Below, piece by piece: positions 9,266 through 45,033 of a stretch of DNA of 64,000 nucleotides. Position 1 is the stretch's first letter. The number at the start of each line of letters is the position of its first letter. This DNA is from Clostridia bacterium. GTDB taxonomy: Bacteria; Bacillota; Clostridia; TANB77; UBA1234. The position numbers and the translations under genes are program-made. The notes beneath the pieces were generated by a model. That model saw only the letters and a list, made by a program, of their open reading frames with translations. It did not search any database and was not told the origin of the DNA. Where the stretch lies: positions 184,312-248,311 of the forward strand of contig JAFYBZ010000014.1 in NCBI GenBank assembly GCA_017539905.1. Direction: 5' to 3'.

Positions 9266-9269
9266 TTAT

Positions 9270-12200: not shown

Positions 12201-12824
12201 CTTTACAAAGTCTTCTTCTACAAATTGAAATCCATTTCTTTCTTCGTCCCAATTGTTGCCATTAATACTTTTGAATTCTTTCTTAAACTCATCAAACTTA
12301 TTGTTCTTTATTATGTTTCTTTCTATTTCTGCAACAGCAGGATTAGTAGAAAGACCTAATTTCTCATTGAACACTTTTTCAAATACTTCCAATATTGCTT
12401 CTTTATTACCAGTAGCAGAATTATTGTTGGCCTGAGAAGCAATATTAAATAGAATCACATCTGAACTCATTTTTTGAATTTCAGAAATATCTTCCAATAG
12501 AGATTTATCCGAAAACTTGTCTTCGAAATACTCTTTCACACTTTTTCCATTTACTACTTTATTATCAATAATGTAAGATAGCATCTTTAGAAAGTGAGAT
12601 TTTCCGCTTCCAAAGAACCCAGAAATCCAAACGCCAACATTATGGCTATGATCTTTAATGCCTTCTTTATAATTTGTAAAAAACAATTTGAATCGTTTTT
12701 CCATTTCTTCTGTAACAACATATTCTTCTAATTCTTGAACTATGTTTTTCTCGTCTTCAACCGTAATTGCTGCTTTTATAGGTCTGTTAATATCCTTATA
12801 AAATATATTCCCCAATTTTTCCAT
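9270..12824 (-). CDS. brxC: BREX-1 ATPase BrxC/PglY
   Basis: 1184 aa. N-terminal P-loop GFFGSGKSHFLK. Size and position are typical of BrxC. Confidence 0.85.
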   Translation of the reverse strand: MEKLGNIFYKDINRPIKAAITVEDEKNIVQELEEYVVTEEMEKRFKLFFTNYKEGIKDHSHNVGVWISGFFGSGKSHFLKMLSYIIDNKVVNGKSVKEYFEDKFSDKSLLEDISEIQKMSSDVILFNIASQANNNSATGNKEAILEVFEKVFNEKLGLSTNPAVAEIERNIIKNNKFDEFKKEFKSINGNNWDEERNGFQFVEEDFVKAYSKVMNVNEDYAKELMDKTERNYSISIRDFAERVNEYIKSKGGNHQVVFLVDEVSLYIGNDDKLVLDLQTIVEDLGDICQGNAWVIATAQQAIDVVIKNVHGLTMSKMLGRFHTRIDISSTNIDEIIKERLLKKKDAIDESLRALYSDKHAIIKNLLFFKGGQHQREYEDNEDFARTYPMIPYQFPLLQDIFESIRDKGFAGISLAGSERTLISAVQEAVKTCADEDLGAFIPLYVFYNTAERELSIKVRNVINSAEKLKKSGHLEELDVNVLKTLFLLKNIKTLPSNIDNITALFVSSIDEDKLVLRENITNALKRLERQTLIQKNGDVYTFLTDDEQEVNREIKNKEIDREAMTDYLKKIILDDFYNDSKMMYKNQPFVITKAIDDYLYTNETDIGFKIRTLAPDEDDKALYFEDDKYAIIKLILNNEVLSDMKYKLQIEKYLQEQKKNTLSDELNVIISTKSIEMRNLEATVKDYIKNALENSEIIIGGNKYESIKSKDIKTRINEALAIVISNKYTKLAFIQKNYTKEDIKALLQDKKLQTKIANIEEFPNQKAYDEIAEYIKYKNSDIASLTIRTILQDFEKVPYGYLEDDILYLLAKALKDGYINLVYGNEIQIPAATETVNKLTNRSYFDRTTVRLRTKIDQKLLDGLKSISRKYFNKTDIGEDEDQMVEGFKNCLNDQIKSINNVVFAKGYYGRYSTYEYPAKEAVNSVYTCLNGLLDIKYNQDFFEEVNGKEEFFKENMPKLEKALEFFDEQNNQREIFDNARSALNVYDKNQQYIGKNKEIDDIANEMKAIMQSEEPYSDIFKLPTLKGKLVDSLTAIYDERCQPIIDEANDAIQYIQKEAAVAKLDNGITEKFAKREQAVIDELKTSNELVIILAQKTLISNIKEEFDIRLELEKAKLQEPEQPTEPGDPAPVPTPRKVVRVGKLINHSFEIDSEEDIDKYVEEIRAKLKEELATNGKLTIKEG

Positions 12825-24163: not shown

Positions 24164-24388
24164 ATGAAGTATCTATGTACGAATTGTGGGGAAATTACTG
24201 AGTTGACAGACAAAATTGAAGTCTACGAAGCCCCCCAGGAAACAAATTATCCCTTTATTGGGCTGAAGCATGTATACAGGATTAAATATTTTCAGTGCCC
24301 AAGATGCATGGATCTTTGTGAGATTGAGAGGCAGCTTATAGAATCCTGGAAGGATGGCAAAAAGGTTGCCCTCGACACCCCACTTTAA
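24164..24388 (+). CDS. YgiT/MqsA-N-type zinc-finger small protein (family member B)
   Basis: CTNCGE...YPF..LKHVY...CPRC...IE. Paralogue of 27365 and 37169. Local GC is clearly higher than the surroundings. AAGGAGG RBS. Terminator hairpin follows. Confidence 0.55.
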   Translation: MKYLCTNCGEITELTDKIEVYEAPQETNYPFIGLKHVYRIKYFQCPRCMDLCEIERQLIESWKDGKKVALDTPL

Positions 24389-27364: not shown

Positions 27365-27616
27365 ATGGAACGGACTAAAACTTGCCCACATTGCAAACAA
27401 GATGTGACCTACACCGATAAAGACATCATCAAAAAATGTGAGTTTGAAAAACCTGTTCCCTTCTGCCGTATTCTCAATGTTTATTGGGATGTTCTCGTTA
27501 AGTGCCCCAACTGTGGAGAGTCTTTCATTGAAAAAGATATTTACATGAATGACGTGATCTATCACGGAAATGCTCACCACACTCCCAAGCCCCGGGTACC
27601 ATTAACTGAAGACTAA
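27365..27616 (+). CDS. YgiT/MqsA-N-type zinc-finger small protein (family member C)
   Basis: CPHCKQDVTYTDKD...PF...NVY..V..CPNCGESFIEKD. RBS AAAGGAGG. Confidence 0.55.
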   Translation: MERTKTCPHCKQDVTYTDKDIIKKCEFEKPVPFCRILNVYWDVLVKCPNCGESFIEKDIYMNDVIYHGNAHHTPKPRVPLTED

Positions 27617-31213: not shown

Positions 31214-32788
31214 TTAATCTTCAGTTGAGTCATCATTTTCAGGTTCATCAGGTTTATCTGTTTTTTCAGAATCACTAGAATCATTGCTGCTCTGAGCATC
31301 AACCAACCCCTTAAGAGCACCCAAGTTCTTTCCAGTGAAATAACCGGCAAGAAGCTGAACGATATTGAGTCCAGTGCTTTCCTCAATGCCACTCAAGACC
31401 TGTGTGGTATTAGTAAGCATTTCTTTGACAAGCTTAGTAGAATTTCCATCGCCGTACATAGTAATCTTGTCGACATTTGAAAGCGGTGCAGAAACAGCTT
31501 TGGCAACTTCAGGAAGTGCCGCAAATGCCATTTCAAGCACAGCAGCCTGGCCGTACTTCTGCATAGCGATAGCTTTCTTGTCGATTGCTTCCGCTTCTGC
31601 CTTACCTTTTGCTTCGATGGCTTCTGCTTCAGCAAGACCGATTGCGCGAATACCTTCTGCTTCCTTCTGCTGCTGAACAAGACGCGCTTCAGCTTCAATC
31701 CGCAGGGCTTCCGCGGCCATCTGCTTTTCATACTTTTCAGCTTCAGCCTGCTTCTGCCGGCGTACAAGATCCGCTTCAGCTTCTTTTTCAGCCTTGAATC
31801 TCGCTGCTTCCGCTTCAGTCTGGACCTTAAACTTCTGAGCCTCAGCAACTTTCTTGATATCAGCTTCCAGAGTACGTTCCTTAAGAGCTACCTGGCGTTC
31901 TGCAAGGTCTGCTTCGCGTTCGCGGCGAGCAATATCTGCATTAACAGTGGTAACTTCGACGTCTCTTCTCTGCATCTGCTCCTGGATTTTATAAGCAGCA
32001 TCTGCTTCTGCCTGCTTGATATCAGAAACCTTCTTGAGTTCAGCCTGACGAATACGAAGTTCGTTTTCGCGTTCAGCAATATTTGTTTCAGAAGCAACTT
32101 CAGCGTTTCTTGCTGCTTCCTGAGCCAGCGCCTGAGCTTTTCTGACTTCCTTTTCGGAATCAGCTCTGGCGATAGCGGCCTGCTGCTTGACCTGAACTTC
32201 GTTTTCAGTACCCAGGGCATCGATTACTCCCTTTTCGTCCTTGAAGTTCTGCACGTTGAATGTCAGAAGTTCAATACCCATGCGGCGAAGGTCAGGAATG
32301 GCATTTTCGCGAACCTTTTCTGCAAAGGCTTTACGGTCATTAACCATTTCCTTGATACCCATCTGGCCGATAATTTCACGTGCGTTACCTTCAAGAACAG
32401 GTGTAACCATCTGAATGCAGTAGTTAGCACTCTGGTTCAGGAAGTTCTTCGCTGCAAGGTCCATGAGGTCATACTTCACGCCATCAATTTCGGTTTCGCC
32501 ACGTGCAACCTGCATTGTAACGACACCATCAATAGTAACATTGATAAATTCTTTTGTCGGAACAGGTACTTGTGTTTTGACATCAACAGAAATGATAGAA
32601 AGCTGTAATTTGTCGATTCTTTCAAGGAAAGGAATTCTTATGCCGGCTTTACCAATAAGTACTTTCCGTCTTTTAAAACCAGTAATGATGTACGCAGTAT
32701 CCGGTGGAGCTTTTACGTAGCTGAGGCTGATGAAAACGATAAATAGTACGACAACCAACGCAATGCCACCGATCAGGAAAAAGTTCAT
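31214..32788 (-). CDS. flotillin-like SPFH-domain protein
   Basis: N-terminal transmembrane segment plus SPFH domain. Long Ala/Glu/Lys/Arg-rich coiled coil. Gene GC about 45-48 % versus about 28 % for the flanks. Confidence 0.8.
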   Translation of the reverse strand: MNFFLIGGIALVVVLFIVFISLSYVKAPPDTAYIITGFKRRKVLIGKAGIRIPFLERIDKLQLSIISVDVKTQVPVPTKEFINVTIDGVVTMQVARGETEIDGVKYDLMDLAAKNFLNQSANYCIQMVTPVLEGNAREIIGQMGIKEMVNDRKAFAEKVRENAIPDLRRMGIELLTFNVQNFKDEKGVIDALGTENEVQVKQQAAIARADSEKEVRKAQALAQEAARNAEVASETNIAERENELRIRQAELKKVSDIKQAEADAAYKIQEQMQRRDVEVTTVNADIARREREADLAERQVALKERTLEADIKKVAEAQKFKVQTEAEAARFKAEKEAEADLVRRQKQAEAEKYEKQMAAEALRIEAEARLVQQQKEAEGIRAIGLAEAEAIEAKGKAEAEAIDKKAIAMQKYGQAAVLEMAFAALPEVAKAVSAPLSNVDKITMYGDGNSTKLVKEMLTNTTQVLSGIEESTGLNIVQLLAGYFTGKNLGALKGLVDAQSSNDSSDSEKTDKPDEPENDDSTED

Positions 32789-32986: not shown

Positions 32987-33054
32987 GTGCTTTTTTGGGA
33001 CACTTACAAAAAGTCACCATTTTATGACTTTTTGTAAGTGTCCCAAAAAGTCAC
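32987..33054. repeat. REPIN-like inverted doublet copy 12: GTGCTTTTTTGGGACACTTACAAAAAGTCAC / GACTTTTTGTAAGTGTCCCAAAAAGTCAC
   Basis: Two REP units in inverted orientation around an 8-nt centre. Overlaps the stop codon of the 33051 gene. Confidence 0.7.
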
Positions 33055-33686: not shown

Positions 33687-34736
33687 CTAACCAGCTATTT
33701 TTAGTAAAACTATCGTTAATAAATATCCTAAAAATCCGCATCCTGGAAAAACTAAAAACCACGAAACAATCAAATTCTTTACGATTTTCCAATTTACATT
33801 AGACAATCTTTTTGCAGCGCCAACACCCATGATTGCAGTTGTTTTTGTATGTGTTGTACTTACTGGCATACCAAAAACACTTGATAATAGCAAGCACGAT
33901 GCTCCAGCTAAGTCAGCACACATTCCTTCATAAGGTTCTATTTTTACCATTTTAATTCCAACTGTTTTTATAATTTTATAACCGCCGATTGAAACTCCGA
34001 TTCCCATAGTTAGGCTACAAAGTATAATTAACCAAACTGGAATTACCATCTCCCCTTGATTTCCACCAAGAGCAGCAAACGAAATTGCTAATAAAAATAT
34101 TCCCATGAATTTTTGTCCATCTTGTGCACCATGCATGAATGCCATAAATGCACCACTTAAAACTTGTCCTTTTTTAAAAACTTTATTTGCTTTTAATCTA
34201 TTAACTTTTTTAAATGTTACTTTAATAATTTTTGCTATTACAAATCCTAATAAAAATCCAATTACTAAAGATAAAAGTAATCCATAAATAACTTTTTTCC
34301 ATTCATCAATATTTACACCAGAGAATCCGTGATTAATTGCTATAGCTGCACCAGTGATTCCTGCAATCAACGCATGACTTTCTGATGATGGGATTCCAAA
34401 TTTTGTAGCTAAGACTGCCCACAAAATTGCACCTACTATTCCTGCGCTCAATGCAATCAATGCATAAGTTTTATTATCTCCGTAGTCCACTAAATTTGAC
34501 ATTGTAGATACGACATTCGAACTAATAAAACTCATTATTAAAACACCAGCGGCATCAAATATAGCTGCCATAATAATAGCATTTCGCGGCTTGATAGTTC
34601 TTGTAGAAACGCAAGTAGCTATTGCATTTGGTGCATCAGTCATACCATTTACAAGCATTAATCCAAGAACTAATAATGAAATGATAAGCAATATTGGATT
34701 ACTTAACACATTATTAAAATACTCTAAAATTGTCAT
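33687..34736 (-). CDS. pitA: inorganic phosphate transporter, PiT family
   Basis: MTILEYFNN...GMTDAPNAIATCVSTR and the duplicated GANDGQK-type motif (MAFMHGAQDGQKFMG). Start after GGGAGAG. The track's N-terminal 45 aa are repeat translation. Confidence 0.8.
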   Translation of the reverse strand: MTILEYFNNVLSNPILLIISLLVLGLMLVNGMTDAPNAIATCVSTRTIKPRNAIIMAAIFDAAGVLIMSFISSNVVSTMSNLVDYGDNKTYALIALSAGIVGAILWAVLATKFGIPSSESHALIAGITGAAIAINHGFSGVNIDEWKKVIYGLLLSLVIGFLLGFVIAKIIKVTFKKVNRLKANKVFKKGQVLSGAFMAFMHGAQDGQKFMGIFLLAISFAALGGNQGEMVIPVWLIILCSLTMGIGVSIGGYKIIKTVGIKMVKIEPYEGMCADLAGASCLLLSSVFGMPVSTTHTKTTAIMGVGAAKRLSNVNWKIVKNLIVSWFLVFPGCGFLGYLLTIVLLKIAG

Positions 34737-34759
34737 TCGTCTCTCCCACTTTTTTCCTT

Positions 34760-34825
34760 GGAATTTGGGGACACTTACTTTTTTCCAACTTTTTTGGTTT
34801 TTTTGGAAGTGTCCCAAAAAAGCAC
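34760..34825. repeat. REPIN-like element copy 13 (GGGGACACTTAC-TTTTTTCCAACTTTTTTGG-TTTTTTTGGAAGTGTCCCAAAAAAGCAC) in the pit leader
   Basis: Inverted REP arms GGGACACTTAC / GGAAGTGTCCC around a CCAAC spacer. Confidence 0.7.
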
Positions 34826-35114
34826 ATTCATTAACTTCTATTATACCAATCAAAATTTTTCTCTTCAACAAAGCATTTTTTGATGATTTCCTTTATAAGC
34901 ACAACTAATGTATAGTATTATGATTAATTATTTTACATTATGTTAAATTCATAGTATAATAAAATTGTACAAAGGTACAATAAAAATCAACATTTCGGAA
35001 TCAGACACATTCGATTAATCTCATATTACTAAAAAATATGAGTAGAGCATTTGTTAATTGAAATCGTGTATGGTCGCTGAGAAATGTTGTGCAAGAAAGG
35101 AAAGCATTTTTCTA

Positions 35115-35309
35115 ATGAGTATGATCCCCTTCCTCATGGCTAAGGCTGCTTACGATAAGCGGCATGGTAAATCACATAGTGCTGCTGGCGATGCTTTAGA
35201 CAACACCGGAACGGTTATCGCCATGATCTTTATTGCCATTATTCCTCTGTGTATTGTTGGCGGCATTATTGAACTAATCCTTATGCTTTGCGGCGTTATT
35301 ACCCCGTAA
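35115..35309 (+). CDS. small membrane protein (64 aa) at the start of the GC-rich block
   Basis: MSMIPFLMAKAAYDKRHGKSHSAAGDALDNTGTVIAMIFIAIIPLCIVGG. Terminator hairpin at 35323-35352. Confidence 0.35.
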   Translation: MSMIPFLMAKAAYDKRHGKSHSAAGDALDNTGTVIAMIFIAIIPLCIVGGIIELILMLCGVITP

Positions 35310-35361
35310 AGTAGGAAAAAAAGCAAGGTGAGCTCTACACCTTGCCTTTTTTTGTTTGGAC

Positions 35362-35476
35362 TTGAGTTGGCTTTTTGGGACAATTCTATTTTTCCAACTT
35401 TTTTTGCTTTTTTGTAATTGTCCCCAAATTCCAGAAAAAGTTGGAAAAATAGCAGTGTCCCAAAAAGCCAACTCAA
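35362..35476. repeat. MITE-like compound REP element copy 14 with perfect 21-bp terminal inverted repeats (TTGAGTTGGCTTTTTGGGACA ... TGTCCCAAAAAGCCAACTCAA)
   Basis: Terminal inverted repeats at 35362-35382 and 35456-35476. The interior has two more GGGACA/TGTCCCC units and CCAAC/GTTGG modules. Confidence 0.7.
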
Positions 35477-35586
35477 TTCTAAATAATTATGTTTACCTGT
35501 TGAATTTTTCCGTATTTGGTGGTATAATTCTCGCGAAAAATAGATTTTGCACTGGTCTCTCGATTAACTAATAGGGGGTAATTCAA

Positions 35587-36909
35587 ATGAAACTGTCTCG
35601 TTTTTCCAAAATCAAACTTGTTAAGCCCGATGTTTATGCTGTGTTCAATACTCTCATGATGAAGGTGCTTTTCCTTTCGGATGAAGAAAAAACTGCTCTT
35701 GAAAATCTGGATTTTTCACCTGATGACAAGAAAACCTATCTGGAATGCGGAATCATCGTCGATGATGATCAGAAGGATGACCTGGCCCTGGGTAGCGTGA
35801 TGCGTGAATTCGAAGCCATGGAAAAAGAAATCGCGGTCTTGTACCTCATTCTTTCCAGTGGCTGCAATCTCGCCTGCCGCTACTGCTTCATTGAAAACAG
35901 CATGTACAACAACAAGTGCGAACTCAACATGTCGCTTGATGTTGTGGATGCCGCTGTCAATAAGTACTGCGACTATGTGAAGGCCAAGAAAATTGACAAG
36001 CCTCTCATCCTCTTCTACGGCGGTGAACCGCTTCTCAACTGGGCCGCTATCGAGCGGACTATGTCCATCGTAAAATCCAAAGGCGTCTACATGGAATATT
36101 CTATCGTGACGAATGCTACTCTGCTCGATGAAGACAAAGTGAAATTCCTTGCGGAGCACGAAGTCGAAATCGGTATTTCTATCGATGGCCCCAAGGACCT
36201 GAACGACAAGAACCGGATTTATCGCAACTCGTCCAGCAGCGTGTACGACAAGGTGACTGAAAAGATTCAGCTGCTTAAAAAGTACAACGCGAAGTTCGGC
36301 TTGTCGATTACCGTTTCTCAGGATCTTCTGGACCACAAGGCCGAATTCTTCGAGTGGATCAAGCAGTACGGAGTGAAGGACATCTTCTACAACCTGTACC
36401 ATTTCACCGACAAGGCGGAATGGGAAGACTACTACAAGCAGGCGTGCCAATTCTTGTTTGAATCGCATGAGATTCTCTCAGGGCTTGGCATTCACGACGG
36501 AAGGCTTCAGAGAAAACTTGATAGTTTCTTCGATGGGTCTTTCAAATTTGCCGACTGTGCATCTATCGGTGCCAACCAGCTGACCATCAAACCGAATGGC
36601 GATATGTGCGTGTGTCAGGGCTATCACAAATCTGACCAGTATGTTATCGGAAACATTCGTGATGTTGATCTGGAAAAACTTCAGGACACCGATGAATTCT
36701 CTTTCTGGGTAAGTCGTGCACCACTCAAGAATCCCAAGTGTCTCGATTGTGAAGCACTTTTTATCTGCGGTGGTGGTTGTGCGATGCAAGCCGAAGCGCT
36801 TTTTGGAAATCGTGCAGAACTCGATATTCCTTTCTGCCAGCATTCCAAGAGTGCTCTCGAATGGTTGCTTCTTAGGAGCTACGAGTTGGCTCTTGAGGAT
36901 AAAAATTGA
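35587..36909 (+). CDS. radical SAM / SPASM-domain peptide-modifying maturase
   Basis: Cx3Cx2C radical-SAM cluster motif CNLACRYC. GGEPLL. C-terminal SPASM signature CLDCEALFICGGGC (Cx2Cx5Cx3C). About 44 % GC. Confidence 0.85.
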   Translation: MKLSRFSKIKLVKPDVYAVFNTLMMKVLFLSDEEKTALENLDFSPDDKKTYLECGIIVDDDQKDDLALGSVMREFEAMEKEIAVLYLILSSGCNLACRYCFIENSMYNNKCELNMSLDVVDAAVNKYCDYVKAKKIDKPLILFYGGEPLLNWAAIERTMSIVKSKGVYMEYSIVTNATLLDEDKVKFLAEHEVEIGISIDGPKDLNDKNRIYRNSSSSVYDKVTEKIQLLKKYNAKFGLSITVSQDLLDHKAEFFEWIKQYGVKDIFYNLYHFTDKAEWEDYYKQACQFLFESHEILSGLGIHDGRLQRKLDSFFDGSFKFADCASIGANQLTIKPNGDMCVCQGYHKSDQYVIGNIRDVDLEKLQDTDEFSFWVSRAPLKNPKCLDCEALFICGGGCAMQAEALFGNRAELDIPFCQHSKSALEWLLLRSYELALEDKN

Positions 36910-36925
36910 AAGGAGGATTTCGCCC

Positions 36926-37111
36926 ATGCGGAAGCTTGACAAGAAAAAGGTGGCCGTGCAGCTGAATAGCTCCCCCACCGCCGGAATGTCTGTCTGCAAC
37001 TCTTGCGCCAAATGTGGCGGCTGCGGAAGTCGCTGCGTGTCCACTTGCAAGGGATGCCATGACAAGGACGTGAAGGTACAGAGCGTCGAGGAAGTTTACT
37101 CCAGCGAGTAA
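36926..37111 (+). CDS. Cys-rich precursor peptide (61 aa; 7 Cys in 21 residues), probable substrate of the rSAM maturase (ranthipeptide/SCIFF-like)
   Basis: GAAAGGAGG RBS then MRKLDKKKVAVQLNSSPTAGMSVCNSCAKCGGCGSRCVSTCKGCHDKDVKVQSVEEVYSSE. Starts 17 nt after the maturase stop. Confidence 0.6.
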   Translation: MRKLDKKKVAVQLNSSPTAGMSVCNSCAKCGGCGSRCVSTCKGCHDKDVKVQSVEEVYSSE

Positions 37112-37123
37112 AGGGAAAAAGCG

Positions 37124-37148
37124 ATGGCCGGGATTCTTTCCCGGCCAT
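37124..37148 (+). terminator. perfect GC-rich hairpin ATGGCCGGGA-ttctt-TCCCGGCCAT immediately after the precursor gene (partial terminator or attenuator)
   Basis: 10-bp perfect stem. A weak T-tract follows. Confidence 0.45.
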
Positions 37149-37168
37149 TGTATTATGGAGGTAGATTC

Positions 37169-37402
37169 ATGGAGAAAAGTACGATGACTCGCATCTGTCC
37201 AACGTGTAAGCAACTCTTTTACTACACCGAAGACAAAGTCACTCGCACAAAAGTGAATAAATGCTATCCTTTTATGAATCTTGTTCACGTTTACGAAGTC
37301 GAGTATCTTGAGTGTCCTAATTGTAAAACAACTTTCGAACTTCGGCGTGCGTTGATCGAAGCGCAAAAAAATGGCAAGCCACTTCACCCACCGATTCACT
37401 AA
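37169..37402 (+). CDS. YgiT/MqsA-N-type zinc-finger small protein (family member D)
   Basis: GGAGG RBS. CPTCKQLFYYTEDK...YPF..LVHVY..EYLECPNCKTTFELRR. Strongly similar to members B and C. Confidence 0.55.
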   Translation: MEKSTMTRICPTCKQLFYYTEDKVTRTKVNKCYPFMNLVHVYEVEYLECPNCKTTFELRRALIEAQKNGKPLHPPIH

Positions 37403-37423
37403 ATAATTTCTCAACGATTCGCG

Positions 37424-37458
37424 AAAAAAAGACAAGGATTTTTCTCCTTGTCTTTTTT
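37424..37458 (+). terminator. rho-independent terminator GACAAGGA-tttttc-TCCTTGTC followed by TTTTTT
   Basis: Read directly. Confidence 0.5.
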
Positions 37459-37459
37459 A

Positions 37460-37492
37460 GTGCTTTTTTGGGACACTTACAAAAAGTCTCAC
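37460..37492. repeat. REP-like copy 15 (GTGCTTTTTTGGGACACTTACAAAAAGTCTCAC)
   Basis: Identical, apart from one extra G, to copy 16. Direct orientation. Confidence 0.7.
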
Positions 37493-38559
37493 TTCAAAAG
37501 CTTTGCCACTCTCTCCGGAATACTCCTTGGCGCTCTTATAAAACTACATCCATGCTCTTTTAAAAAGCTATATGGATATTCGTTGTTTTTATATTTTTTA
37601 ATCAGCTTTAATTCCATGTCTCTTGCTGAATATATTTTTAAATTTGTTTTTATAATTTCGCATTTATATAAAATTTGTGAATATGGTGCACCAACATAAA
37701 TATAAACAAGATCCCCCACTTTTGCTTCTTTAGGCTGCTTATGCCACACAAAAGTTTTATTATTATCAACGTAACTTACCACATCAAACACATTTATATT
37801 CGACGGAATAATAAACGCACCCGACTTAACTGTCATTTGATAACTATCATCTAAAAGTCTGTATGTATCTTTTAGTTTTGTATTTTTATCGAGAATAATT
37901 GTTATCCAGCTTTCTTTATTCATGTGATAACCAGGAAAAACATTTTGATAATCAATTACCTCTTTTGATTTTTCTTTATCTATATGCAAGTCCAAAACTT
38001 CGATATAATCATCATCCGAAAAATCTTTTATATTTAAAAGTGGATGATCAGAAATCACGCCATCTATTTTCATTCTTTTTAATGTAGATGTGACAAAACT
38101 TTTTTCTCTAACTTTCATGATAACGCCATACCATTTTTTGTTGTCTTGATTTCTAAATACAGCGCCATCGTAATCATCCCACAAAAATTCTAATTCACCA
38201 TCAAATTTTTCTTTTACATATGAAATGATTTTCTTTGCGGATGGCGATTTAAAAGTATCTAAATACGTGCATTTTTCAACGAACTTTTCTAACACTTCTT
38301 CGTATTCTTCTTTAATGCTACCAACAAATTGTCCACTCGATTCTTCAACATCTACGAGAGCATATTCTGATTCATCAAAATTGTCTAGCACTTTTGAAAT
38401 CGCTTTTTTCTTATCGACTTCAATAACAACTTTAAACTCTCCATCTTTTATATCTTTGATGTAAGTATATTTATCTTTATTTTTCTTAAAGCCAAACTTA
38501 GTAAGTTTGGCTTCATCAATTGATCGACTTTTCAAATACGCCTTATACAAATCTCTCAT
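37489..38559 (-). CDS. hypothetical protein with MmcQ/YjbR-like segment (PGYHMNKESW) and C-terminal EVE/PUA-like region
   Basis: 356 aa ORF. AGGAG RBS. The family assignment is weak. Confidence 0.45.
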   Translation of the reverse strand: MRDLYKAYLKSRSIDEAKLTKFGFKKNKDKYTYIKDIKDGEFKVVIEVDKKKAISKVLDNFDESEYALVDVEESSGQFVGSIKEEYEEVLEKFVEKCTYLDTFKSPSAKKIISYVKEKFDGELEFLWDDYDGAVFRNQDNKKWYGVIMKVREKSFVTSTLKRMKIDGVISDHPLLNIKDFSDDDYIEVLDLHIDKEKSKEVIDYQNVFPGYHMNKESWITIILDKNTKLKDTYRLLDDSYQMTVKSGAFIIPSNINVFDVVSYVDNNKTFVWHKQPKEAKVGDLVYIYVGAPYSQILYKCEIIKTNLKIYSARDMELKLIKKYKNNEYPYSFLKEHGCSFIRAPRSIPERVAKLLK

Positions 38560-39094: not shown

Positions 39095-39161
39095 TGCTTT
39101 TTGGGGACACTTACTTTTTTCCAACTTTTTCGGGTTTTTTGGACGTGTCCCAAAAAATCAC
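39095..39161. repeat. REPIN-like element copy 17 (..GGGGACACTTAC-TTTTTTCCAACTTTTTCGGG-TTTTTTGGACGTGTCCCAAAAAATCAC)
   Basis: Lies between the exonuclease stop and the RBS of the 39082 gene. Confidence 0.7.
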
Positions 39162-41372: not shown

Positions 41373-41478
41373 TGCTTTTTTGGGACACGTCCATTTTTCC
41401 AACTATTTCTGGAATTTTGGGACACTTCCATTTTTCCAACTTTTTCTGGTTTTTTGTATGTGTCCCAAAAATCCAACC
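41373..41478. repeat. compound REP array copy 19, 3' flank of the RAYT gene
   Basis: gtgcttttttgggacacgtccatttttccaactatttctgg aattttgggacacttccatttttccaactttttctgg ttttttgtatgtgtcccaaaaatccaacc. Two direct units plus one inverted. Confidence 0.7.
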
Positions 41479-41483
41479 CAAAA

Positions 41484-42248
41484 TTACAATTTCACTTTAT
41501 AATTCTCATCAAGTATTGCTTTAGAAACACTAAGCCAATTGATAATATCTTTTTGTTTCAATTTGCATTCTTGATTCAAATATACAATCAATTTTTGCAA
41601 TACTGCTCGAACGCTAAAGATTTCAATCAAAGAATGATTATACTCCGCGATAAAACTTCTAACGCCATCTTCAAAGTACTCATGACTAATCTTTGTCGAA
41701 TCAAGATCCATAAACACTCTGTCATAAGCTTCGTCTATCGCTTTCAAATAATTCACATTTTCTCCGAACACTTCTTTCAAAATCTCACACTTTGCACAAC
41801 CTTGTCCACGCAAATAATCTTGATACGATGAGTACGAATAAGCCTCACAACAGGTTGCTATTCCTGCCTTTACAGGATTGTTGTGAATATACTTTATGCA
41901 ATTTACTAAATGCGACATTTCATAAATCGGTTCCAATTGATATCTATTTCTAAATACAACTCCTACTCTATCTTCGCTTTTATTATAAAAGTTAGCAAAA
42001 TTTTGATTCACTGATTTCATAAATTGTCCAAAGCATTCGATATCTTTCACATAGAATAAAAAATGTGCGTGATTATTCATCATGCAATAAGCAAGCAAAT
42101 CAAATTCTTTGTAGTGTGATTCACTCTTTATACTCTTTAAATAATAATTTAGATTTTTGGGATTATCAAAAACATATTCTTTATTTACACCTTGAACCAT
42201 AACATGAATGAATGGTGTATTAATTTTTTTGCGTGCAACACGTGACAT
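41484..42248 (-). CDS. HUH-Y1 transposase-like protein, REP-associated tyrosine transposase (RAYT/TnpA-REP)-like
   Basis: HUH motif MMNNHAHFLFYV and Tyr motif YIHNNPVKAGI, as in IS200/RAYT Y1 enzymes. GGAGG RBS. Flanked on both sides by compound repeat arrays. Confidence 0.7.
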   Translation of the reverse strand: MSRVARKKINTPFIHVMVQGVNKEYVFDNPKNLNYYLKSIKSESHYKEFDLLAYCMMNNHAHFLFYVKDIECFGQFMKSVNQNFANFYNKSEDRVGVVFRNRYQLEPIYEMSHLVNCIKYIHNNPVKAGIATCCEAYSYSSYQDYLRGQGCAKCEILKEVFGENVNYLKAIDEAYDRVFMDLDSTKISHEYFEDGVRSFIAEYNHSLIEIFSVRAVLQKLIVYLNQECKLKQKDIINWLSVSKAILDENYKVKL

Positions 42249-42364: not shown

Positions 42365-42469
42365 GGAATTTTGGGACAGGTCCAAAATTCCAACTTTTCT
42401 TGGATTTTTGTAAGTGTCCCAAAATCCCAACTTTTTCTGGATTTTTGTAAGTGTCCCCAAAAGTCACAC
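42365..42469. repeat. compound REP array copy 20, 5' flank of the RAYT gene
   Basis: ggaattttgggacaggtccaaaattccaacttttcttgg atttttgtaagtgtcccaaaatcccaactttttctgg atttttgtaagtgtccccaaaagtcacac. Confidence 0.7.
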
Positions 42470-42756: not shown

Positions 42757-43848
42757 CTATCTATTATTCTTTTGCTTCGGAATTTCGGGAAGCTGTCGTC
42801 CAACAATATTAATGTCTTTAAGCAGTTCCGGATCTTTGCTCATCATAATACTTCCATGCCCACGCAAATTCAAAACATAAGCAACTCGTTCAAAATTTCC
42901 GTTATAGAATTTTTTCACAGCACGCTCGATTTCATCGACTTCTTCAATTGCTCCGCACGGCACTATCCTATCCGTAAACAACGCATTTTTAATATAGCAA
43001 TGCGAATGAATCATAAAGTTGATATTCGGAAACATCTTATAAAGTCGGACCTGAATCGGCGTATCGACCGATGGCTTATTTTCACCGATGTAATAAATTT
43101 TTCCATCCTTCATATAAACCGGCACAAAATCCTGCGCGCTAATGAATTCTTTATTCACATTTCTTCGACTTACAAAAATCAAATCGCCTTGCCTAAAAGA
43201 AGGAAATCCTTTTGGACATCTGAACGATGCATTGCCCAAAAATCTTTTAACATCTTTTGTCTGGAAAATTGCCTCAGCAAAAACATTTGCATAGTTTCGA
43301 ACAATGCCCAAAAAATCTTCATTAAAAGTATCGTCACTCAAATTTAAATCTTCAAGTTTGATATCAGAAGAAATTGTCGGCTCACGAGTAATCGTAGATA
43401 AAAATTCAAGTCGCTTTTGCATCTTTTCTGCGCAACTAATGATGCTCGCCCCATCGTACCAAAGATTTCCGAGCGGATCAAAAAGTCTCATGTTGAAAAC
43501 TTTACCCTTCTCACTAAACTCAATTGTGAGGTTCGCCTTCGCTTCAAGCGACCGCTGAAGTAATTCTTCAAAAGTATATTCACCATTATTTCTTTTCGAT
43601 GTAACAAGCAATGCCTTATAATTTATCTCTTTGACATTTCTAACCTTCGGCATATCATTCGGCACATTTGCCCACCAAAGAACAACATCAAAATAAATAC
43701 TCGTTTCAATTATCCGATGCAAATCAAAATAGTATCCACCGTTATAAACCGTGACATACGAAAACTCTCTCGCAAATTTTTCAACTACTCTTGATTTCTT
43801 TCCACCTTGAAAATCCCATGTTCCGCCAACAAGAAGAATGCTGTTCAT
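42757..43848 (-). CDS. two-domain protein with C-terminal class II aldolase/adducin-like domain
   Basis: MIHSHCY...NLRGHGSIMM carries the HSH and GHG zinc-ligand motifs. N-terminal domain unknown. Confidence 0.55.
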   Translation of the reverse strand: MNSILLVGGTWDFQGGKKSRVVEKFAREFSYVTVYNGGYYFDLHRIIETSIYFDVVLWWANVPNDMPKVRNVKEINYKALLVTSKRNNGEYTFEELLQRSLEAKANLTIEFSEKGKVFNMRLFDPLGNLWYDGASIISCAEKMQKRLEFLSTITREPTISSDIKLEDLNLSDDTFNEDFLGIVRNYANVFAEAIFQTKDVKRFLGNASFRCPKGFPSFRQGDLIFVSRRNVNKEFISAQDFVPVYMKDGKIYYIGENKPSVDTPIQVRLYKMFPNINFMIHSHCYIKNALFTDRIVPCGAIEEVDEIERAVKKFYNGNFERVAYVLNLRGHGSIMMSKDPELLKDINIVGRQLPEIPKQKNNR

Positions 43849-43865
43849 TTTAACTCCCCCTTTTA

Positions 43866-44924
43866 TTACGGCTTAAAGTCAAAATCAAAATAAGTATAGT
43901 AGCCTCCTTTTGGCAAAGCTAAATAATCCTCAATCTTTTGATTTGCAAGATAATCAAGATTTGAAATTCGAGTAATGCCATTGTAATAGAATGCGAGCGG
44001 ATTAACATACCGAGTTTTTACGGATGTATTAATGCAATAAACTCCTTCAACAGGACAATCGCTTCGATACACCTTATCCGCCTTTTGAAATTTTCGAAAA
44101 CTCTCTTCCAAATACGGATCACCGCAATGCAAGATTTTTTCGATCACTTCTTTTTCTGATAGAGTATATAAATCATCAATTAATAAATATCCACGCTGAT
44201 TCATCGCCTTGCACATATCCGCAATAAACTGCATAACTGTTCTATCTTTGTCACTTACCCATTCCGGCCAAATCTTTGCAGCAAAATGAATATACTCCGC
44301 ACAAATTTCTTTGTGCCTAAAAGTAAACTCATCAAGTCCGTCTTCATTTTTCGCAATCGTAATATCATTATAAACTCTTCGAATAGTATCTAAATCCCAA
44401 ATTCTAAAAAAAGAAAGCCCACTTGAAAAAGTATATTCGAATCTGTCTGCCGAAAGCCGCGGTGTCTCATTATCCGCCAAAGGATAAATTTTATAGTCCT
44501 TCACTTCTTCAAGCTTAATTCCGTCACGTTTTAAAAGCGTCATTATTTCTATGGAATTCTTTATAAAATCTGTCGTTTTTTCTTCGGTCGATTCCTGCGT
44601 TAAAGAATCGCCATTCATAAAATCAATGCAATGCTTAAAAACCGGTGTCGCAATATCATGGAAAAGTCCGGCCAAAGTCTGCTTTTTGTCATGCGTAAAA
44701 TGCCACAAAATGAGTGCAACACCCACACTATGCTCAAGATTAGAATACCAATACCGAATGTTATAACACCCAGAGTAATCCGTTCCGCAACTGATACTGA
44801 TTTTACCTATGCGCTGCATCTCCGGTGTGTTGATATATTCCATCATCCATTCCGGGAACTCAGGCGACAAAATCCGAAAATATTCACGAATTTCCTCGTT
44901 CAAACTTTGTAAGTACGAATTCAT
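43866..44924 (-). CDS. HD-domain phosphohydrolase
   Basis: HSVGVALILWHF...AGLFHDIATPVFKH. Start at MNSYLQSL after AAAGGAGG. Confidence 0.65.
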   Translation of the reverse strand: MNSYLQSLNEEIREYFRILSPEFPEWMMEYINTPEMQRIGKISISCGTDYSGCYNIRYWYSNLEHSVGVALILWHFTHDKKQTLAGLFHDIATPVFKHCIDFMNGDSLTQESTEEKTTDFIKNSIEIMTLLKRDGIKLEEVKDYKIYPLADNETPRLSADRFEYTFSSGLSFFRIWDLDTIRRVYNDITIAKNEDGLDEFTFRHKEICAEYIHFAAKIWPEWVSDKDRTVMQFIADMCKAMNQRGYLLIDDLYTLSEKEVIEKILHCGDPYLEESFRKFQKADKVYRSDCPVEGVYCINTSVKTRYVNPLAFYYNGITRISNLDYLANQKIEDYLALPKGGYYTYFDFDFKP

Positions 44925-45033
44925 CTTATTCCTGCCTCCTTTATTAATTGAAAAGGATTTTCTCAAATAATCCACTTTGCGAGAGCATAATACCACGGAT
45001 TTGCCGATTTTTCAACCGATTTTGTGGTTTTAG

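What the first reader, a model, noticed from the sequence alone, without database searches (positions are those of the whole stretch)
35115..37402. GC-rich (about 44 %) radical-SAM/SPASM maturase plus 7-Cys precursor peptide block in a 28 % GC background, with a perfect GC hairpin after the peptide gene
The maturase has CNLACRYC plus a textbook SPASM motif (Cx2Cx5Cx3C). It is followed, after 17 nt, by a 61-aa ORF whose core SVCNSCAKCGGCGSRCVSTCKGC packs 7 Cys at 2-3-residue spacing. This is a RiPP precursor of the ranthipeptide/SCIFF or sactipeptide kind, but the gene order (maturase first) and the Cys pattern differ from canonical SCIFF. A perfect 10-bp GC hairpin (ATGGCCGGGA...TCCCGGCCAT) sits directly after the peptide gene and before a YgiT-type zinc-finger gene, a possible attenuator. 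A small membrane-protein gene precedes the block. The composition indicates horizontal acquisition, and the block is bounded by repeat elements. No transporter or protease is present, so the peptide may be intracellular (SCIFF-like) rather than exported.
Basis: partly seen in the sequence, partly recalled or inferred. Interest (0 to 1): 0.75.

Follow-up and report, generated by a model that had tools for sequence, protein, structure and literature searches.

The report
Unnamed radical-SAM peptide-maturase cassette, horizontally acquired
A gut bacterium has picked up a two-gene cassette, a radical-SAM enzyme plus the small cysteine-rich peptide it almost certainly modifies, that belongs to a small undescribed family of a well-known kind of peptide natural-product system.

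Summary
At 35587-36909 there is a 440-aa radical-SAM/SPASM enzyme. After a 16-nt spacer with an AAGGAGG ribosome-binding site comes a 61-aa ORF (36926-37111) with 7 Cys, then a perfect 10-bp GC hairpin.

The island is foreign by composition: GC3 is 0.57 and 0.73 for the two genes against about 0.20 for host genes.

The pair is real and conserved:
- Homologous maturases (44-100 % identity) carry a homologous peptide directly downstream.
- All 10 loci found with the peptide alone have the maturase just upstream.
- The peptide core shows 14-18 synonymous versus 1-5 non-synonymous codon changes.
- Nothing else is conserved around the pair, and no transporter or protease appears in the annotated loci.

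The enzyme fails every curated family cut-off. Its nearest model is the uncharacterised FibroRumin maturase (226 bits, cut-off 400). It is not an anaerobic sulfatase maturase, SCIFF maturase, PapB or cyclopropyl synthase. The peptide matches no family model and no paper in the library.

It most likely works like SCIFF or ranthipeptide systems: Cys-derived thioether crosslinks on a peptide that is probably not exported. This chemistry is inferred, not shown.

Three side claims fail or weaken. The hairpin sits where homologues have ordinary terminators, the zinc-finger is not YgiT-type, and the flanking repeats occur across the window.

The parts
35500..35528 (+). Promoter-like site TTGAAT-17-TATAAT with a TG-extended -10 element, 58 nt upstream of the maturase start
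   Evidence: It matches the consensus at 10 of 12 positions with TG before the -10. Promoter-like sites in the region are not enriched over shuffles, so this is a candidate only.
35587..36909 (+). Radical-SAM/SPASM peptide maturase, 440 aa
   Evidence: Pfam Radical_SAM, Fer4_12 and SPASM all score above their cut-offs. The best NCBIfam model is the FibroRumin maturase at 226 bits, below its cut-off of 400. The AlphaFold2 model has pLDDT 94; its best full-length PDB matches are TigE and CteB.
35587..35826 (+). N-terminal RRE-like domain (residues 1-80): three beta-strands followed by three helices
   Evidence: Secondary structure of the model: strands 7-13, 16-21 and 28-31; helices 32-39, 45-53 and 61-78. 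The Foldseek alignments to TigE and CteB are about as long as the whole query, and the sequence alignment to TigE starts at query residue 14. TigE residues 3-85 and the CteB N-terminus are RREs (PMC10878394). There is no Pfam PqqD hit.
35863..35886 (+). CNLACRYC, the Cx3Cx2C motif that binds the SAM-cleaving [4Fe-4S] cluster (C93, C97, C100)
   Evidence: All three Cys are invariant in 34 of 34 homologues.
36556..36837 (+). SPASM region with seven invariant Cys (324, 343, 385, 388, 394, 398, 417), including Cx2Cx5Cx3C at 385-398
   Evidence: The seven Cys are invariant in 34 of 34 sequences, and C341 is present in only 24 of 34. The cysteine pair after the first SPASM Cys of anSME ('tcTC') falls opposite a gap in the query.
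36910..36916 (+). AAGGAGG ribosome-binding site for the peptide gene, 9 nt before the ATG
   Evidence: Read directly from the sequence.
36926..37111 (+). Precursor peptide gene, 61 aa: MRKLDKKKVAVQLNSSPTAG-MSVCNSCAKCGGCGSRCVSTCKGCHDKDV-KVQSVEEVYSSE
   Evidence: A homologous peptide lies directly downstream of the maturase in the homologous loci. All 10 peptide-seeded loci have the maturase upstream. The family has 92 clusters at 90 % identity and 17 at 50 %, of which three carry only a generic source label ('hypothetical protein' or similar) and the rest no name.
36986..37072 (+). Conserved Cys-rich core (residues 21-49). Family invariants are S22, C24, C30, C41, K42, C44 and D46, with Y58 in the tail.
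   Evidence: Invariants come from alignment A3 of 51 sequences. Codon changes in the core are 14-18 synonymous versus 1-5 non-synonymous. In the leader and tail, non-synonymous changes equal or exceed synonymous ones.
37121..37151 (+). GC-rich stem-loop after the peptide gene: perfect 10 bp at 37124-37148, 13 bp with flanking pairs. It is a probable terminator or leaky terminator.
   Evidence: Free energy -25.8 kcal/mol, z = -5.3. A stem-loop occupies the same position in all 9 homologous loci examined, in most of them followed by a T-rich run. Here the 3' tail (UUGUAUUAU) is poor in U.

Best explanation
The two genes form a self-contained RiPP cassette. The 440-aa enzyme is a radical-SAM/SPASM maturase with an N-terminal peptide-recognition (RRE-like) domain. 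The 61-aa product of the next gene is its substrate.

**Proposed mechanism (inferred by analogy).**
1. The enzyme binds the precursor.
2. It cleaves SAM at the C93/C97/C100 cluster to give a 5'-deoxyadenosyl radical.
3. The radical abstracts a hydrogen from a side-chain or backbone carbon of an acceptor residue in the core.
4. A core cysteine, probably held on the first auxiliary cluster, closes a thioether ring.

This is the chemistry of ranthipeptide, SCIFF and QhpD systems. The invariant CKGCxDK stretch makes a Cys-Asp link the leading candidate.

**Other inferences.**
- No protease, transporter or immunity gene travels with the pair, and the core rather than the leader is the conserved part. 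The product is therefore more likely an intracellular or non-antibiotic peptide, as argued for SCIFF, than a secreted bacteriocin.
- This genome acquired the cassette horizontally from a GC-richer donor.
- The stem-loop after the peptide gene ends, or partly ends, the transcript.

**Shown:** domain content, invariant residues, gene pairing, purifying selection, foreign composition.
**Inferred:** substrate relationship, thioether chemistry, cellular location.

The confidence of 0.6 is for the whole statement. The enzyme-substrate pairing alone is about 0.9; thioether chemistry of either kind is about 0.6.
For: **Enzyme identity.**
- Radical_SAM and SPASM score above Pfam cut-offs.
- C93, C97, C100 and seven SPASM Cys are invariant in 34 homologues.
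- The predicted structure (pLDDT 94) has a beta3-alpha3 N-terminal domain and aligns over about its whole length to the RRE-containing maturases TigE and CteB.
- The ranking of curated models puts peptide maturases first: FibroRumin 226 bits, PapB 156, CefB 137, nif11 136, then QhpD and anSME at 133 each.
- The cysteine pair that follows the first SPASM Cys in anSME falls opposite a gap in the query, as in the CteB alignment. CteB has an open iron site on that cluster that can hold a substrate Cys (PMC8326336).

**Pairing.**
- A homologous peptide lies directly downstream in loci carrying maturases 100, 85, 73, 68, 50-52 and 44 % identical, plus more divergent Cys-rich ORFs at 34-38 %.
- All 10 peptide-seeded metagenome loci have the maturase upstream.
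- In the one subclade without an adjacent peptide, a homologue lies about 1 kb upstream.
- DNA homology with the 85 % sister locus covers 35587-37111 only, which is exactly the two genes.

**Real coding gene.** Core codons show 14-18 synonymous versus 1-5 non-synonymous changes.

**No accessory genes.** Neighbours differ in every lineage annotated.

**Horizontal transfer.** GC3 is 0.57 and 0.73 against about 0.20 for host genes. The 59-aa-peptide relatives in low-GC gut genomes have cassette GC close to that of their flanks.
Against: - No chemistry was or can be tested here.
- The closest model (FibroRumin) is itself uncharacterised.
- The three best solved structures are about equally distant (E 1e-21 to 1e-24) and perform three different reactions: cyclopropanation, formylglycine formation and thioether formation.
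- C341 is present in this protein and in 24 of 34 relatives, and could fill the open cluster site.
- The number of Cys varies from 4 to 7 across the family, and only one acidic residue is invariant. The number and partners of the crosslinks are therefore unknown.
- The invariant Tyr58 has no role in a simple thioether scheme.
- A transporter or protease could be encoded elsewhere in the genome.
Confidence: 0.6

Rival explanations
1. The substrate relationship is the same but the chemistry differs. Candidates are a sactipeptide-type S-to-C-alpha thioether, a carbon-carbon or carbon-oxygen crosslink involving the invariant Tyr58, or another radical modification such as epimerisation.
For: Tyr58 is invariant in 51 peptides, and a (V/I)Y motif persists in most of the divergent subclades. 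The sister FibroRumin precursors have a conserved aromatic residue (Trp) at the same C-terminal position. The best PDB match, TigE, forms C-C bonds. Sactisynthases are known to be too divergent in sequence to recognise by similarity (PMC10288494).
Against: Curated ranthipeptide and thioether models (PapB 156 bits, QhpD 133, SCIFF 106) outscore cyclophane and sactipeptide models (YhhB 107, AmcB 88, FxsB 87; RumMC does not appear among the 25 best families for this protein and scores 75 bits for a relative). The GYW motif that defines cyclopropyl synthases aligns to GLG here. The core is dominated by invariant Cys.
Confidence: 0.2
2. The small protein is not a substrate. It is a metal-binding partner: a mini-ferredoxin or zinc peptide that serves the enzyme, for example as electron donor. 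The enzyme then acts on something else.
For: The Cx2Cx2Cx2C spacing resembles iron-sulfur binding motifs. The core is strongly conserved, as expected for a folded metal site. Small zinc-finger genes sit near the cassette in two lineages.
Against: The Cys count is not conserved; members of the family have 4 to 7. The enzyme carries an RRE-like peptide-binding domain. The sister FibroRumin family has several tandem precursor copies per enzyme, which is typical of substrates. No other candidate substrate is conserved nearby.
Confidence: 0.07
3. The enzyme is an anaerobic sulfatase-maturating enzyme or another protein-modifying SPASM enzyme, and the small ORF is incidental.
For: anSME is among the best sequence and structure matches: E 1.5e-24 by sequence and TM-score 0.66-0.68 normalised to the query.
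Against: The anSME models score 133 and 101 bits against cut-offs of 349 and 441. The sequence alignment to anSME starts at query residue 84, so the N-terminal domain has no counterpart there. No C/S-x-P/A-x-R sulfatase motif occurs in the peptide, and none of the Pfam-annotated neighbours is a sulfatase. The small ORF is strictly co-inherited with the enzyme and under purifying selection.
Confidence: 0.02

Closest known systems
FibroRumin system (NCBIfam TIGR04136 maturase with TIGR04135 Cys-rich precursors), uncharacterised experimentally
   Same: It is the best-scoring curated model for the maturase. Both are radical-SAM/SPASM enzymes of about 440-460 aa next to short Cys-rich peptides. Both come from gut and rumen anaerobes. 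Both precursor families have an N-terminal leader, a Cys-rich middle and a C-terminal tail with a conserved aromatic residue.
   Different: The maturase is only about 30 % identical and scores 226 bits against a cut-off of 400. A true member scores 795 bits. The peptide does not hit TIGR04135, and profile-profile comparison gives 9.6 % probability. FibroRumin-type precursors lie upstream, up to three per enzyme. Here a single precursor lies downstream.
SCIFF / thermocellin system (CteA-CteB, Tte1186a-Tte1186; ranthipeptides)
   Same: Both have an RRE, radical-SAM and SPASM architecture. Both have a highly conserved Cys-rich peptide of about 45-60 aa. Both are minimal two-gene units without transporter or protease. 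The upstream SPASM Cys pattern aligns like that of CteB.
   Different: The SCIFF maturase model scores 106 bits against a cut-off of 425, and no SCIFF peptide model is hit. The Cys pattern here is Cx2Cx2Cx2Cx3Cx3Cx2C with up to 7 Cys. From my own knowledge, the gene order is reversed relative to scfA-scfB. SCIFF is widespread in Clostridia (PMC8326336), whereas this family is small, with 17 clusters at 50 % identity.
PapB/PapA (freyrasin) and QhpD/QhpC Cys-Asp and Cys-Glu thioether formation
   Same: These are the second-ranked (PapB, 156 bits) and a similarly ranked (QhpD, 133 bits) curated models. An invariant Asp follows the invariant Cys pair (C41-K-G-C44-x-D46).
   Different: Both scores are below the cut-offs of 340 and 453. 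There is no repeated Cx3D motif. QhpC is a subunit of an enzyme and not a free peptide.
Anaerobic sulfatase-maturating enzyme (anSME, PDB 4K36-4K39)
   Same: It shares the radical-SAM core and a SPASM domain with two auxiliary clusters, and the E-value is comparable.
   Different: The sequence alignment to anSME starts at query residue 84, leaving the N-terminal RRE-like domain unmatched. The cysteine pair after the first SPASM Cys of anSME has no counterpart here. The score is below the family cut-off, and there is no sulfatase context.
Cyclopropylglycine synthases TvgB/TigE (PDB 8VPO)
   Same: TigE is the top PDB hit by both sequence and structure, with the same three-domain layout.
   Different: The GYW motif that defines the family, whose Tyr binds the auxiliary cluster, aligns to GLG here. 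The substrate has no TVGG or TIGSVS repeats.

Membership tests
Radical SAM superfamily | Cx3Cx2C cluster motif and the Radical_SAM domain | tested here: met
   CNLACRYC at residues 93-100 is invariant in 34 of 34 sequences. PF04055 scores 63.9 bits against a cut-off of 29.5.
SPASM subfamily | C-terminal domain with seven or more Cys, including Cx2Cx5Cx3C, for two auxiliary [4Fe-4S] clusters | tested here: met
   PF13186 scores 29.9 bits against a cut-off of 21.5. C324, 343, 385, 388, 394, 398 and 417 are invariant. Cluster content itself is not testable here.
RRE-dependent RiPP maturases | N-terminal winged-helix RRE (three strands plus three helices) that binds the precursor | tested here: met
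   In the predicted structure, residues 1-80 form beta3-alpha3 with pLDDT of 95 or more, and the model aligns over about its whole length with TigE and CteB. This rests on a model only. There is no Pfam PqqD hit, and binding is untested.
RiPP maturase-precursor pair | A short precursor gene co-inherited with the enzyme | tested here: met
   The peptide is adjacent in the homologous loci. All 10 peptide-seeded loci have the maturase upstream. The core is under purifying selection.
FibroRumin system | Maturase reaches the TIGR04136 cut-off (400 bits) | tested here: not met
   It scores 226.3 bits. A true member (L025) scores 794.6 bits.
FibroRumin system | Precursor matches TIGR04135 | tested here: not met
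   No hit at E of 1 or below. The hhalign probability against FibroRumin-type precursors is 9.6 %.
SCIFF (ScfA/ScfB) | Maturase reaches the TIGR03974 cut-off (425 bits) and the peptide matches the SCIFF model | tested here: not met
   The maturase scores 106.1 bits, and the peptide hits no SCIFF peptide model.
PapB-type ranthipeptide | Maturase reaches the NF047865 cut-off (340 bits); precursor has repeated Cx3D motifs | tested here: not met
   The maturase scores 155.8 bits. There is a single invariant Asp and no Cx3D repeats.
Ranthipeptide or sactipeptide (chemical classes) | Cys sulfur linked to a non-alpha (ranthi) or alpha (sacti) carbon of another residue | not testable with these tools
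   This needs mass spectrometry or NMR of the modified peptide.
Anaerobic sulfatase-maturating enzymes | Reaches the TIGR03942 or NF010321 cut-off and acts on a C/S-x-P/A-x-R motif in sulfatases | tested here: not met
   The scores are 132.7 and 100.8 bits against cut-offs of 349 and 441. The motif is absent from the peptide, and none of the Pfam-annotated neighbours is a sulfatase.
Cyclopropyl synthases (TvgB/TigE) | Strictly conserved GYW motif whose Tyr ligates auxiliary cluster I | tested here: not met
   TigE G338-Y339-W340 aligns to G-L-G in this protein.
YgiT/MqsA-type zinc finger (neighbouring gene 37169-37402) | Match to a YgiT-type zinc-finger model | tested here: not met
   There is no such hit at E of 1 or below. 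Only weak generic zinc-ribbon hits appear (YnfU family 22 bits, Zn_ribbon_4 23 bits), all below their cut-offs.
Intrinsic terminator (hairpin 37121-37151) | Stable GC-rich stem-loop followed by a U-run | tested here: inconclusive
   The stem is very stable. The tail UUGUAUUAU is weak, and the scan called the site only on the minus strand. Homologous loci have stem-loops at this position, most followed by a T-rich run.

The most novel reading that the evidence does not exclude
The peptide family is a functional counterpart of SCIFF in low-GC, host-associated gut bacteria: a non-exported, strongly conserved crosslinked peptide with a cellular role such as redox, metal handling or signalling. Its invariant CKGCxDK...Y signature would reflect a crosslink pattern not yet described, for example one involving the invariant Tyr. 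It spreads between gut genomes as a bare two-gene cassette.
Probability: 0.15. Interest if true: 0.6.

Novelty: new member of a known kind. Interest (0 to 1): 0.4.

Why it matters
Radical-SAM/SPASM enzymes paired with Cys-rich peptides are a productive source of new peptide chemistry. The biological role of the conserved, transporter-less examples such as SCIFF is still unclear. This cassette defines a small family not covered by the Pfam, NCBIfam or PADLOC models or by the paper library searched here. It has 92 peptide clusters at 90 % identity and 17 at 50 %. The records that name a habitat or host come from ruminant, rabbit, chicken and human gut assemblies, mostly labelled Bacilli or Mollicutes. 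The signature is sharply defined and the gene content is minimal, so it would be easy to reconstitute: two genes in E. coli, then mass spectrometry. It also shows a RiPP cassette moving horizontally as only enzyme plus substrate. It does not challenge any current concept, and a specialist would expect such families to exist.

Tried and rejected
- **Empty site.** An exact-protein look-up of the downstream YjbR-domain gene, to find an allele without the island, returned only the same strain.
- **Phage carriage.** The best IMG/VR relative is 26 % identical, so there is no evidence of phage carriage.
- **Known RNA elements.** Rfam over 34500-37800 gave only sub-threshold microRNA-model hits on the long palindromic repeat at 35352-35486. 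No riboswitch or leader was found.
- **Defence role**, given BREX genes in the window. PADLOC gave only generic radical-SAM-core similarity to viperins (63 bits over residues 87-245).
- **Literature.** Searches for 'FibroRumin' and for peptide motifs (SVCNSCA, TCKGCKDK and others) found nothing. The precursor list of PMC10288494 is not held as text.
- **Homology to FibroRumin precursors.** Rejected by hhalign.
- **Membrane ORF and zinc-ribbon gene as parts of the system.** Rejected, because DNA homology with the sister cassette ends at the two gene borders.
- **Exact look-up of the maturase.** It failed when the translation was given directly and succeeded through the identical database entry P0001.


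Full report
**1. What is in the sequence**

- **Maturase.** A 440-aa ORF at 35587-36909 (+) carries CNLACRYC (residues 93-100) and CLDCEALFICGGGC (385-398). It passes the Pfam cut-offs for Radical_SAM (63.9 bits against 29.5), Fer4_12 and SPASM (29.9 bits against 21.5).
- **Peptide.** Sixteen nucleotides later, behind an AAGGAGG site, a 61-aa ORF at 36926-37111 encodes MRKLDKKKVAVQLNSSPTAGMSVCNSCAKCGGCGSRCVSTCKGCHDKDVKVQSVEEVYSSE. It has seven Cys, at positions 24, 27, 30, 33, 37, 41 and 44.
- **Hairpin.** A perfect 10-bp GC-rich inverted repeat at 37124-37148 follows. It folds as a 13-bp stem of -25.8 kcal/mol (z = -5.3; 0 of 200 shuffles fold as well).
- **Next gene.** The following gene is best read from the ATG at 37169, which has GGAGG 8 nt upstream and is called as 77 aa on independent contigs. 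The hairpin is therefore intergenic.

**2. Composition**

The stretch 35115-37402 is 45.1 % GC. The rest of the window is 30.7 %. Third-position GC separates the block cleanly from its surroundings:

| Gene | GC3 |
|---|---|
| small membrane ORF | 0.46 |
| maturase | 0.57 |
| peptide | 0.73 |
| zinc-ribbon gene | 0.44 |
| other genes tabulated (except flotillin 0.40 and two genes at 42757-44996, 0.35) | 0.11-0.30 |

. Horizontal acquisition is thus well supported.

By exact-protein names, the source is a ruminant-gut metagenome-assembled genome labelled 'Clostridia bacterium'. A contig 99.97 % identical to the window over 12 kb occurs in a ruminant gut assembly, and other assemblies carry the identical maturase.

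**3. The pair is a conserved unit**

A database search gave 1358 relatives of the maturase. A homologous small ORF sits immediately downstream wherever a contig was read:

- in the loci with maturases 100, 85, 73 and 68 % identical. The core SVCxSCAxCGxxGSRCVSTCKGCHDKDV is nearly identical across them;
- in species-representative genomes labelled Bacilli, Mollicutes or Clostridium sp., at 44-52 % maturase identity (L012, L013, L014, L021). More divergent Cys-rich ORFs follow at 34-38 % (L019, L020).

The converse test used the peptide alone to seed a metagenome scan. It returned 10 loci, and all 10 have the maturase directly upstream.

One subclade (L015-L018, 37-41 %) seemed to lack the peptide. 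A profile search then found homologous peptides about 1 kb upstream on the other strand in L016, L017 and L018. In the fourth locus the contig ends about 1 kb upstream of the maturase, so a peptide gene at the position seen in the others would be at or beyond its end.

DNA similarity between the window and the 85 % sister locus spans 35587-37111 only. That runs from the first codon of the maturase to the stop of the peptide.

Neighbouring genes differ in each lineage annotated, and none is a transporter or protease.

Between four cassettes, the 29 core codons show 14-18 synonymous and 1-5 non-synonymous differences. In the leader and tail, non-synonymous changes equal or exceed synonymous ones. 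The small ORF is therefore a translated gene whose core is under strong purifying selection.

**4. The peptide family**

A profile search found 92 clusters at 90 % identity, of which all but one are 47-63 aa. Three carry only a generic source label ('hypothetical protein' or similar), the rest none, and none has a Pfam domain. An exhaustive HMMER scan of 1.84 billion representatives found only 17 clusters at 50 % identity.

In 51 aligned members:
- invariant residues are S22, C24, C30, C41, K42, C44, D46 and Y58;
- nearly invariant residues are V23, S26, C27, C37, G43 and K47.

The signature is a-S-V-C-x-S-C-A...C...T-C-K-G-C-x-D-K...(V/I)-Y. The window's member belongs to a 61-aa 'HDKDV' clade.

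Members of that clade sit above their flanks in GC: 41-46 % against about 31 % in the window, L005 and L186, and 32-34 % against 26-27 % in L008 and L094. Members of the 59-aa clade match their genomes.

The peptide hits no NCBIfam precursor model, neither SCIFF nor FibroRumin. Profile-profile comparison with FibroRumin-type precursors is negative, at 9.6 % probability.

**5. The enzyme**

The scores against curated NCBIfam models rank as follows:

| Model | Bits | Cut-off |
|---|---|---|
| FibroRumin maturase | 226 | 400 |
| PapB | 156 | 340 |
| CefB | 137 | 600 |
| nif11 maturase | 136 | 519 |
| QhpD | 133 | 453 |
| anSME | 133 | 349 |
| SCIFF maturase | 106 | 425 |

No cut-off is reached. 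A genuine FibroRumin maturase found in the same scan scores 795 bits. It has three TIGR04135-type precursors upstream. This family is therefore a distinct relative at about 30 % identity.

An AlphaFold2 model built from 34 homologues is confident (pLDDT 94, pTM 0.91). It shows three strands and three helices in residues 1-80 ahead of the barrel.

The best PDB matches are TigE, CteB, anSME, ChlB and SuiB. The TigE and CteB alignments are about as long as the whole query, and the sequence alignment to TigE starts at query residue 14. TigE and CteB both have N-terminal RREs (PMC10878394; PMC8326336). The sequence alignment to anSME starts only at query residue 84.

The GYW motif that defines cyclopropyl synthases aligns to GLG here.

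In the alignment with anSME, the cysteine pair that follows its first SPASM Cys falls opposite a gap in the query. The arrangement resembles CteB, whose first auxiliary cluster has an open site that can hold a substrate Cys. A nearby Cys (C341) is present in this protein but in only 24 of 34 relatives.

**6. How it most likely works**

By analogy with the characterised relatives, the enzyme docks the precursor. It generates a 5'-deoxyadenosyl radical at the C93/C97/C100 cluster and abstracts a hydrogen from an acceptor residue in the core. It then joins a cysteine sulfur to that carbon, with the auxiliary clusters holding the thiolate and taking the electron.

The invariant C41-K-G-C44-x-D46-K47 stretch makes a Cys-Asp link plausible, as formed by PapB and QhpD. 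The number and topology of rings cannot be predicted.

Three features argue for a non-bacteriocin, probably intracellular product, as argued for SCIFF:
- no transporter, protease or immunity gene travels with the pair;
- selection falls on the core and not on the leader;
- the core stays nearly identical across enzymes that differ by up to about 30 %.

All of this section is inference. The domain content, the pairing and the selection pattern are shown.

**7. Side claims**

- **Hairpin.** All nine homologous loci examined have a stem-loop directly after the peptide gene, in most of them followed by a T-rich run. The element is positionally an operon terminator. In the window its 3' tail is U-poor, and the zinc-ribbon gene 20 nt downstream has an RBS with no promoter-like site called between the peptide gene and its start. 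Leaky termination with read-through is therefore plausible but unproven.
- **Zinc-finger gene.** It gives no YgiT-type hit. It is one of three paralogues in the window: 24164-24388, 27365-27616 and 37169-37402. All three have GC3 of 0.44-0.47. The other two have their own TTGAAT or TTGACA-17-TGGTATAAT promoters.
- **Repeats.** The 'bounding' repeats are a REP-like palindrome with 28 copies in the window against about 2 expected. They lie next to a Y1-transposase (RAYT-like) gene at 41484-42248.
- **Small membrane ORF.** It is GC-rich, with promoter-like and terminator-like sites.

**8. Comparison and verdict**

In function it most resembles SCIFF and ranthipeptide systems. In sequence it is nearest to the uncharacterised FibroRumin system. 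It is not a member of either, nor of the PapB, anSME or cyclopropyl-synthase families, because each defining test was run and failed (see the membership table).

No paper in the searchable library mentions the motifs.

It is a new family within a well-known kind of system. That makes it interesting as an easily testable two-gene RiPP cassette with an unusually conserved core and clear horizontal mobility, but not surprising to a specialist.

Noticed in passing
window 5615-12824 (-): Two very large ORFs are exact matches to proteins that NCBI names BREX-1 methyltransferase PglX and BREX P-loop protein BrxC. A phage-defence system therefore lies about 23 kb from the cassette.
   Followed up: partly
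window 13-42 kb, e.g. 32987-33054, 34764-34825, 35352-35486, 39100-39161, 41378-41476, 42369-42461: A REP-like palindromic repeat (TTTTGGGACACTTAC...GTAAGTGTCCCAAAA) occurs 28 times against about 2 expected, in the gaps between the ORFs listed. A Y1-transposase (RAYT-like) gene at 41484-42248 is flanked by copies on both sides. The 55-nt-arm copy at 35352-35486 gives spurious sub-threshold microRNA hits in Rfam.
   Followed up: partly
window 24164-24388, 27365-27616, 37169-37402 (all +): Three paralogous small zinc-ribbon genes (74, 83 and 77 aa; 33-36 % identical) all have GC3 of 0.44-0.47 in a genome with GC3 near 0.20. All are on the strand opposite to most genes. The first two have their own extended -10 promoters. 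The third has none and follows the cassette hairpin. The promoter in front of the maturase (TGTTGAATTTT...TGGTATAAT) resembles that of the first paralogue, so the cassette may have landed between a zinc-ribbon gene and its promoter. This is speculative.
   Followed up: partly
window 31214-32788 (-): A flotillin-family gene is a second compositional outlier (GC 45.7 %, GC3 0.40). Normal-GC PhoU-like and PHO4 genes separate it from the cassette.
   Followed up: no
L005 5527-5730 (-), L186 1576-1782 (-): In the two closest sister lineages (maturase 85 % and 83 % identical), a divergently transcribed gene sits just upstream of the maturase. It is also GC-rich (44-45 %) and encodes 67-68 aa with four CxxCxGxG repeats (DnaJ cysteine-rich-domain / BSD2-like). 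It is absent from the window. It might be an accessory factor for the Cys-rich peptide.
   Followed up: partly
L016 3888-4074, L017 3763-3976, L018 3899-4088 (all on the strand opposite to the maturase): In a subclade of maturases 37-41 % identical, the homologous peptide (e.g. MKFFDLKTAKAGKKYETNEKVYSSTCNCGSCNCNCGGGGSSTTKCSKQTKINMVKDIEHIYK) is not adjacent. It lies about 1 kb upstream on the other strand, beyond a reading frame that ends at the maturase start and looks like a methyltransferase (not tested against any family model).
   Followed up: yes
L008-L010, about 2-5 kb downstream of the cassette: In the 68 % lineage, the cassette lies next to a region that varies between otherwise identical contigs. 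That region carries phage-type integrase genes in each contig, which suggests an integration hot spot.
   Followed up: no
window 35115-35309 (+): A GC-rich 64-aa hydrophobic ORF has its own promoter-like (34932-34960) and terminator-like (35323-35345) sites. It has no family hit, no exact match in the protein collection and no gene call on the contig that matches the window, so its reality is uncertain.
   Followed up: partly
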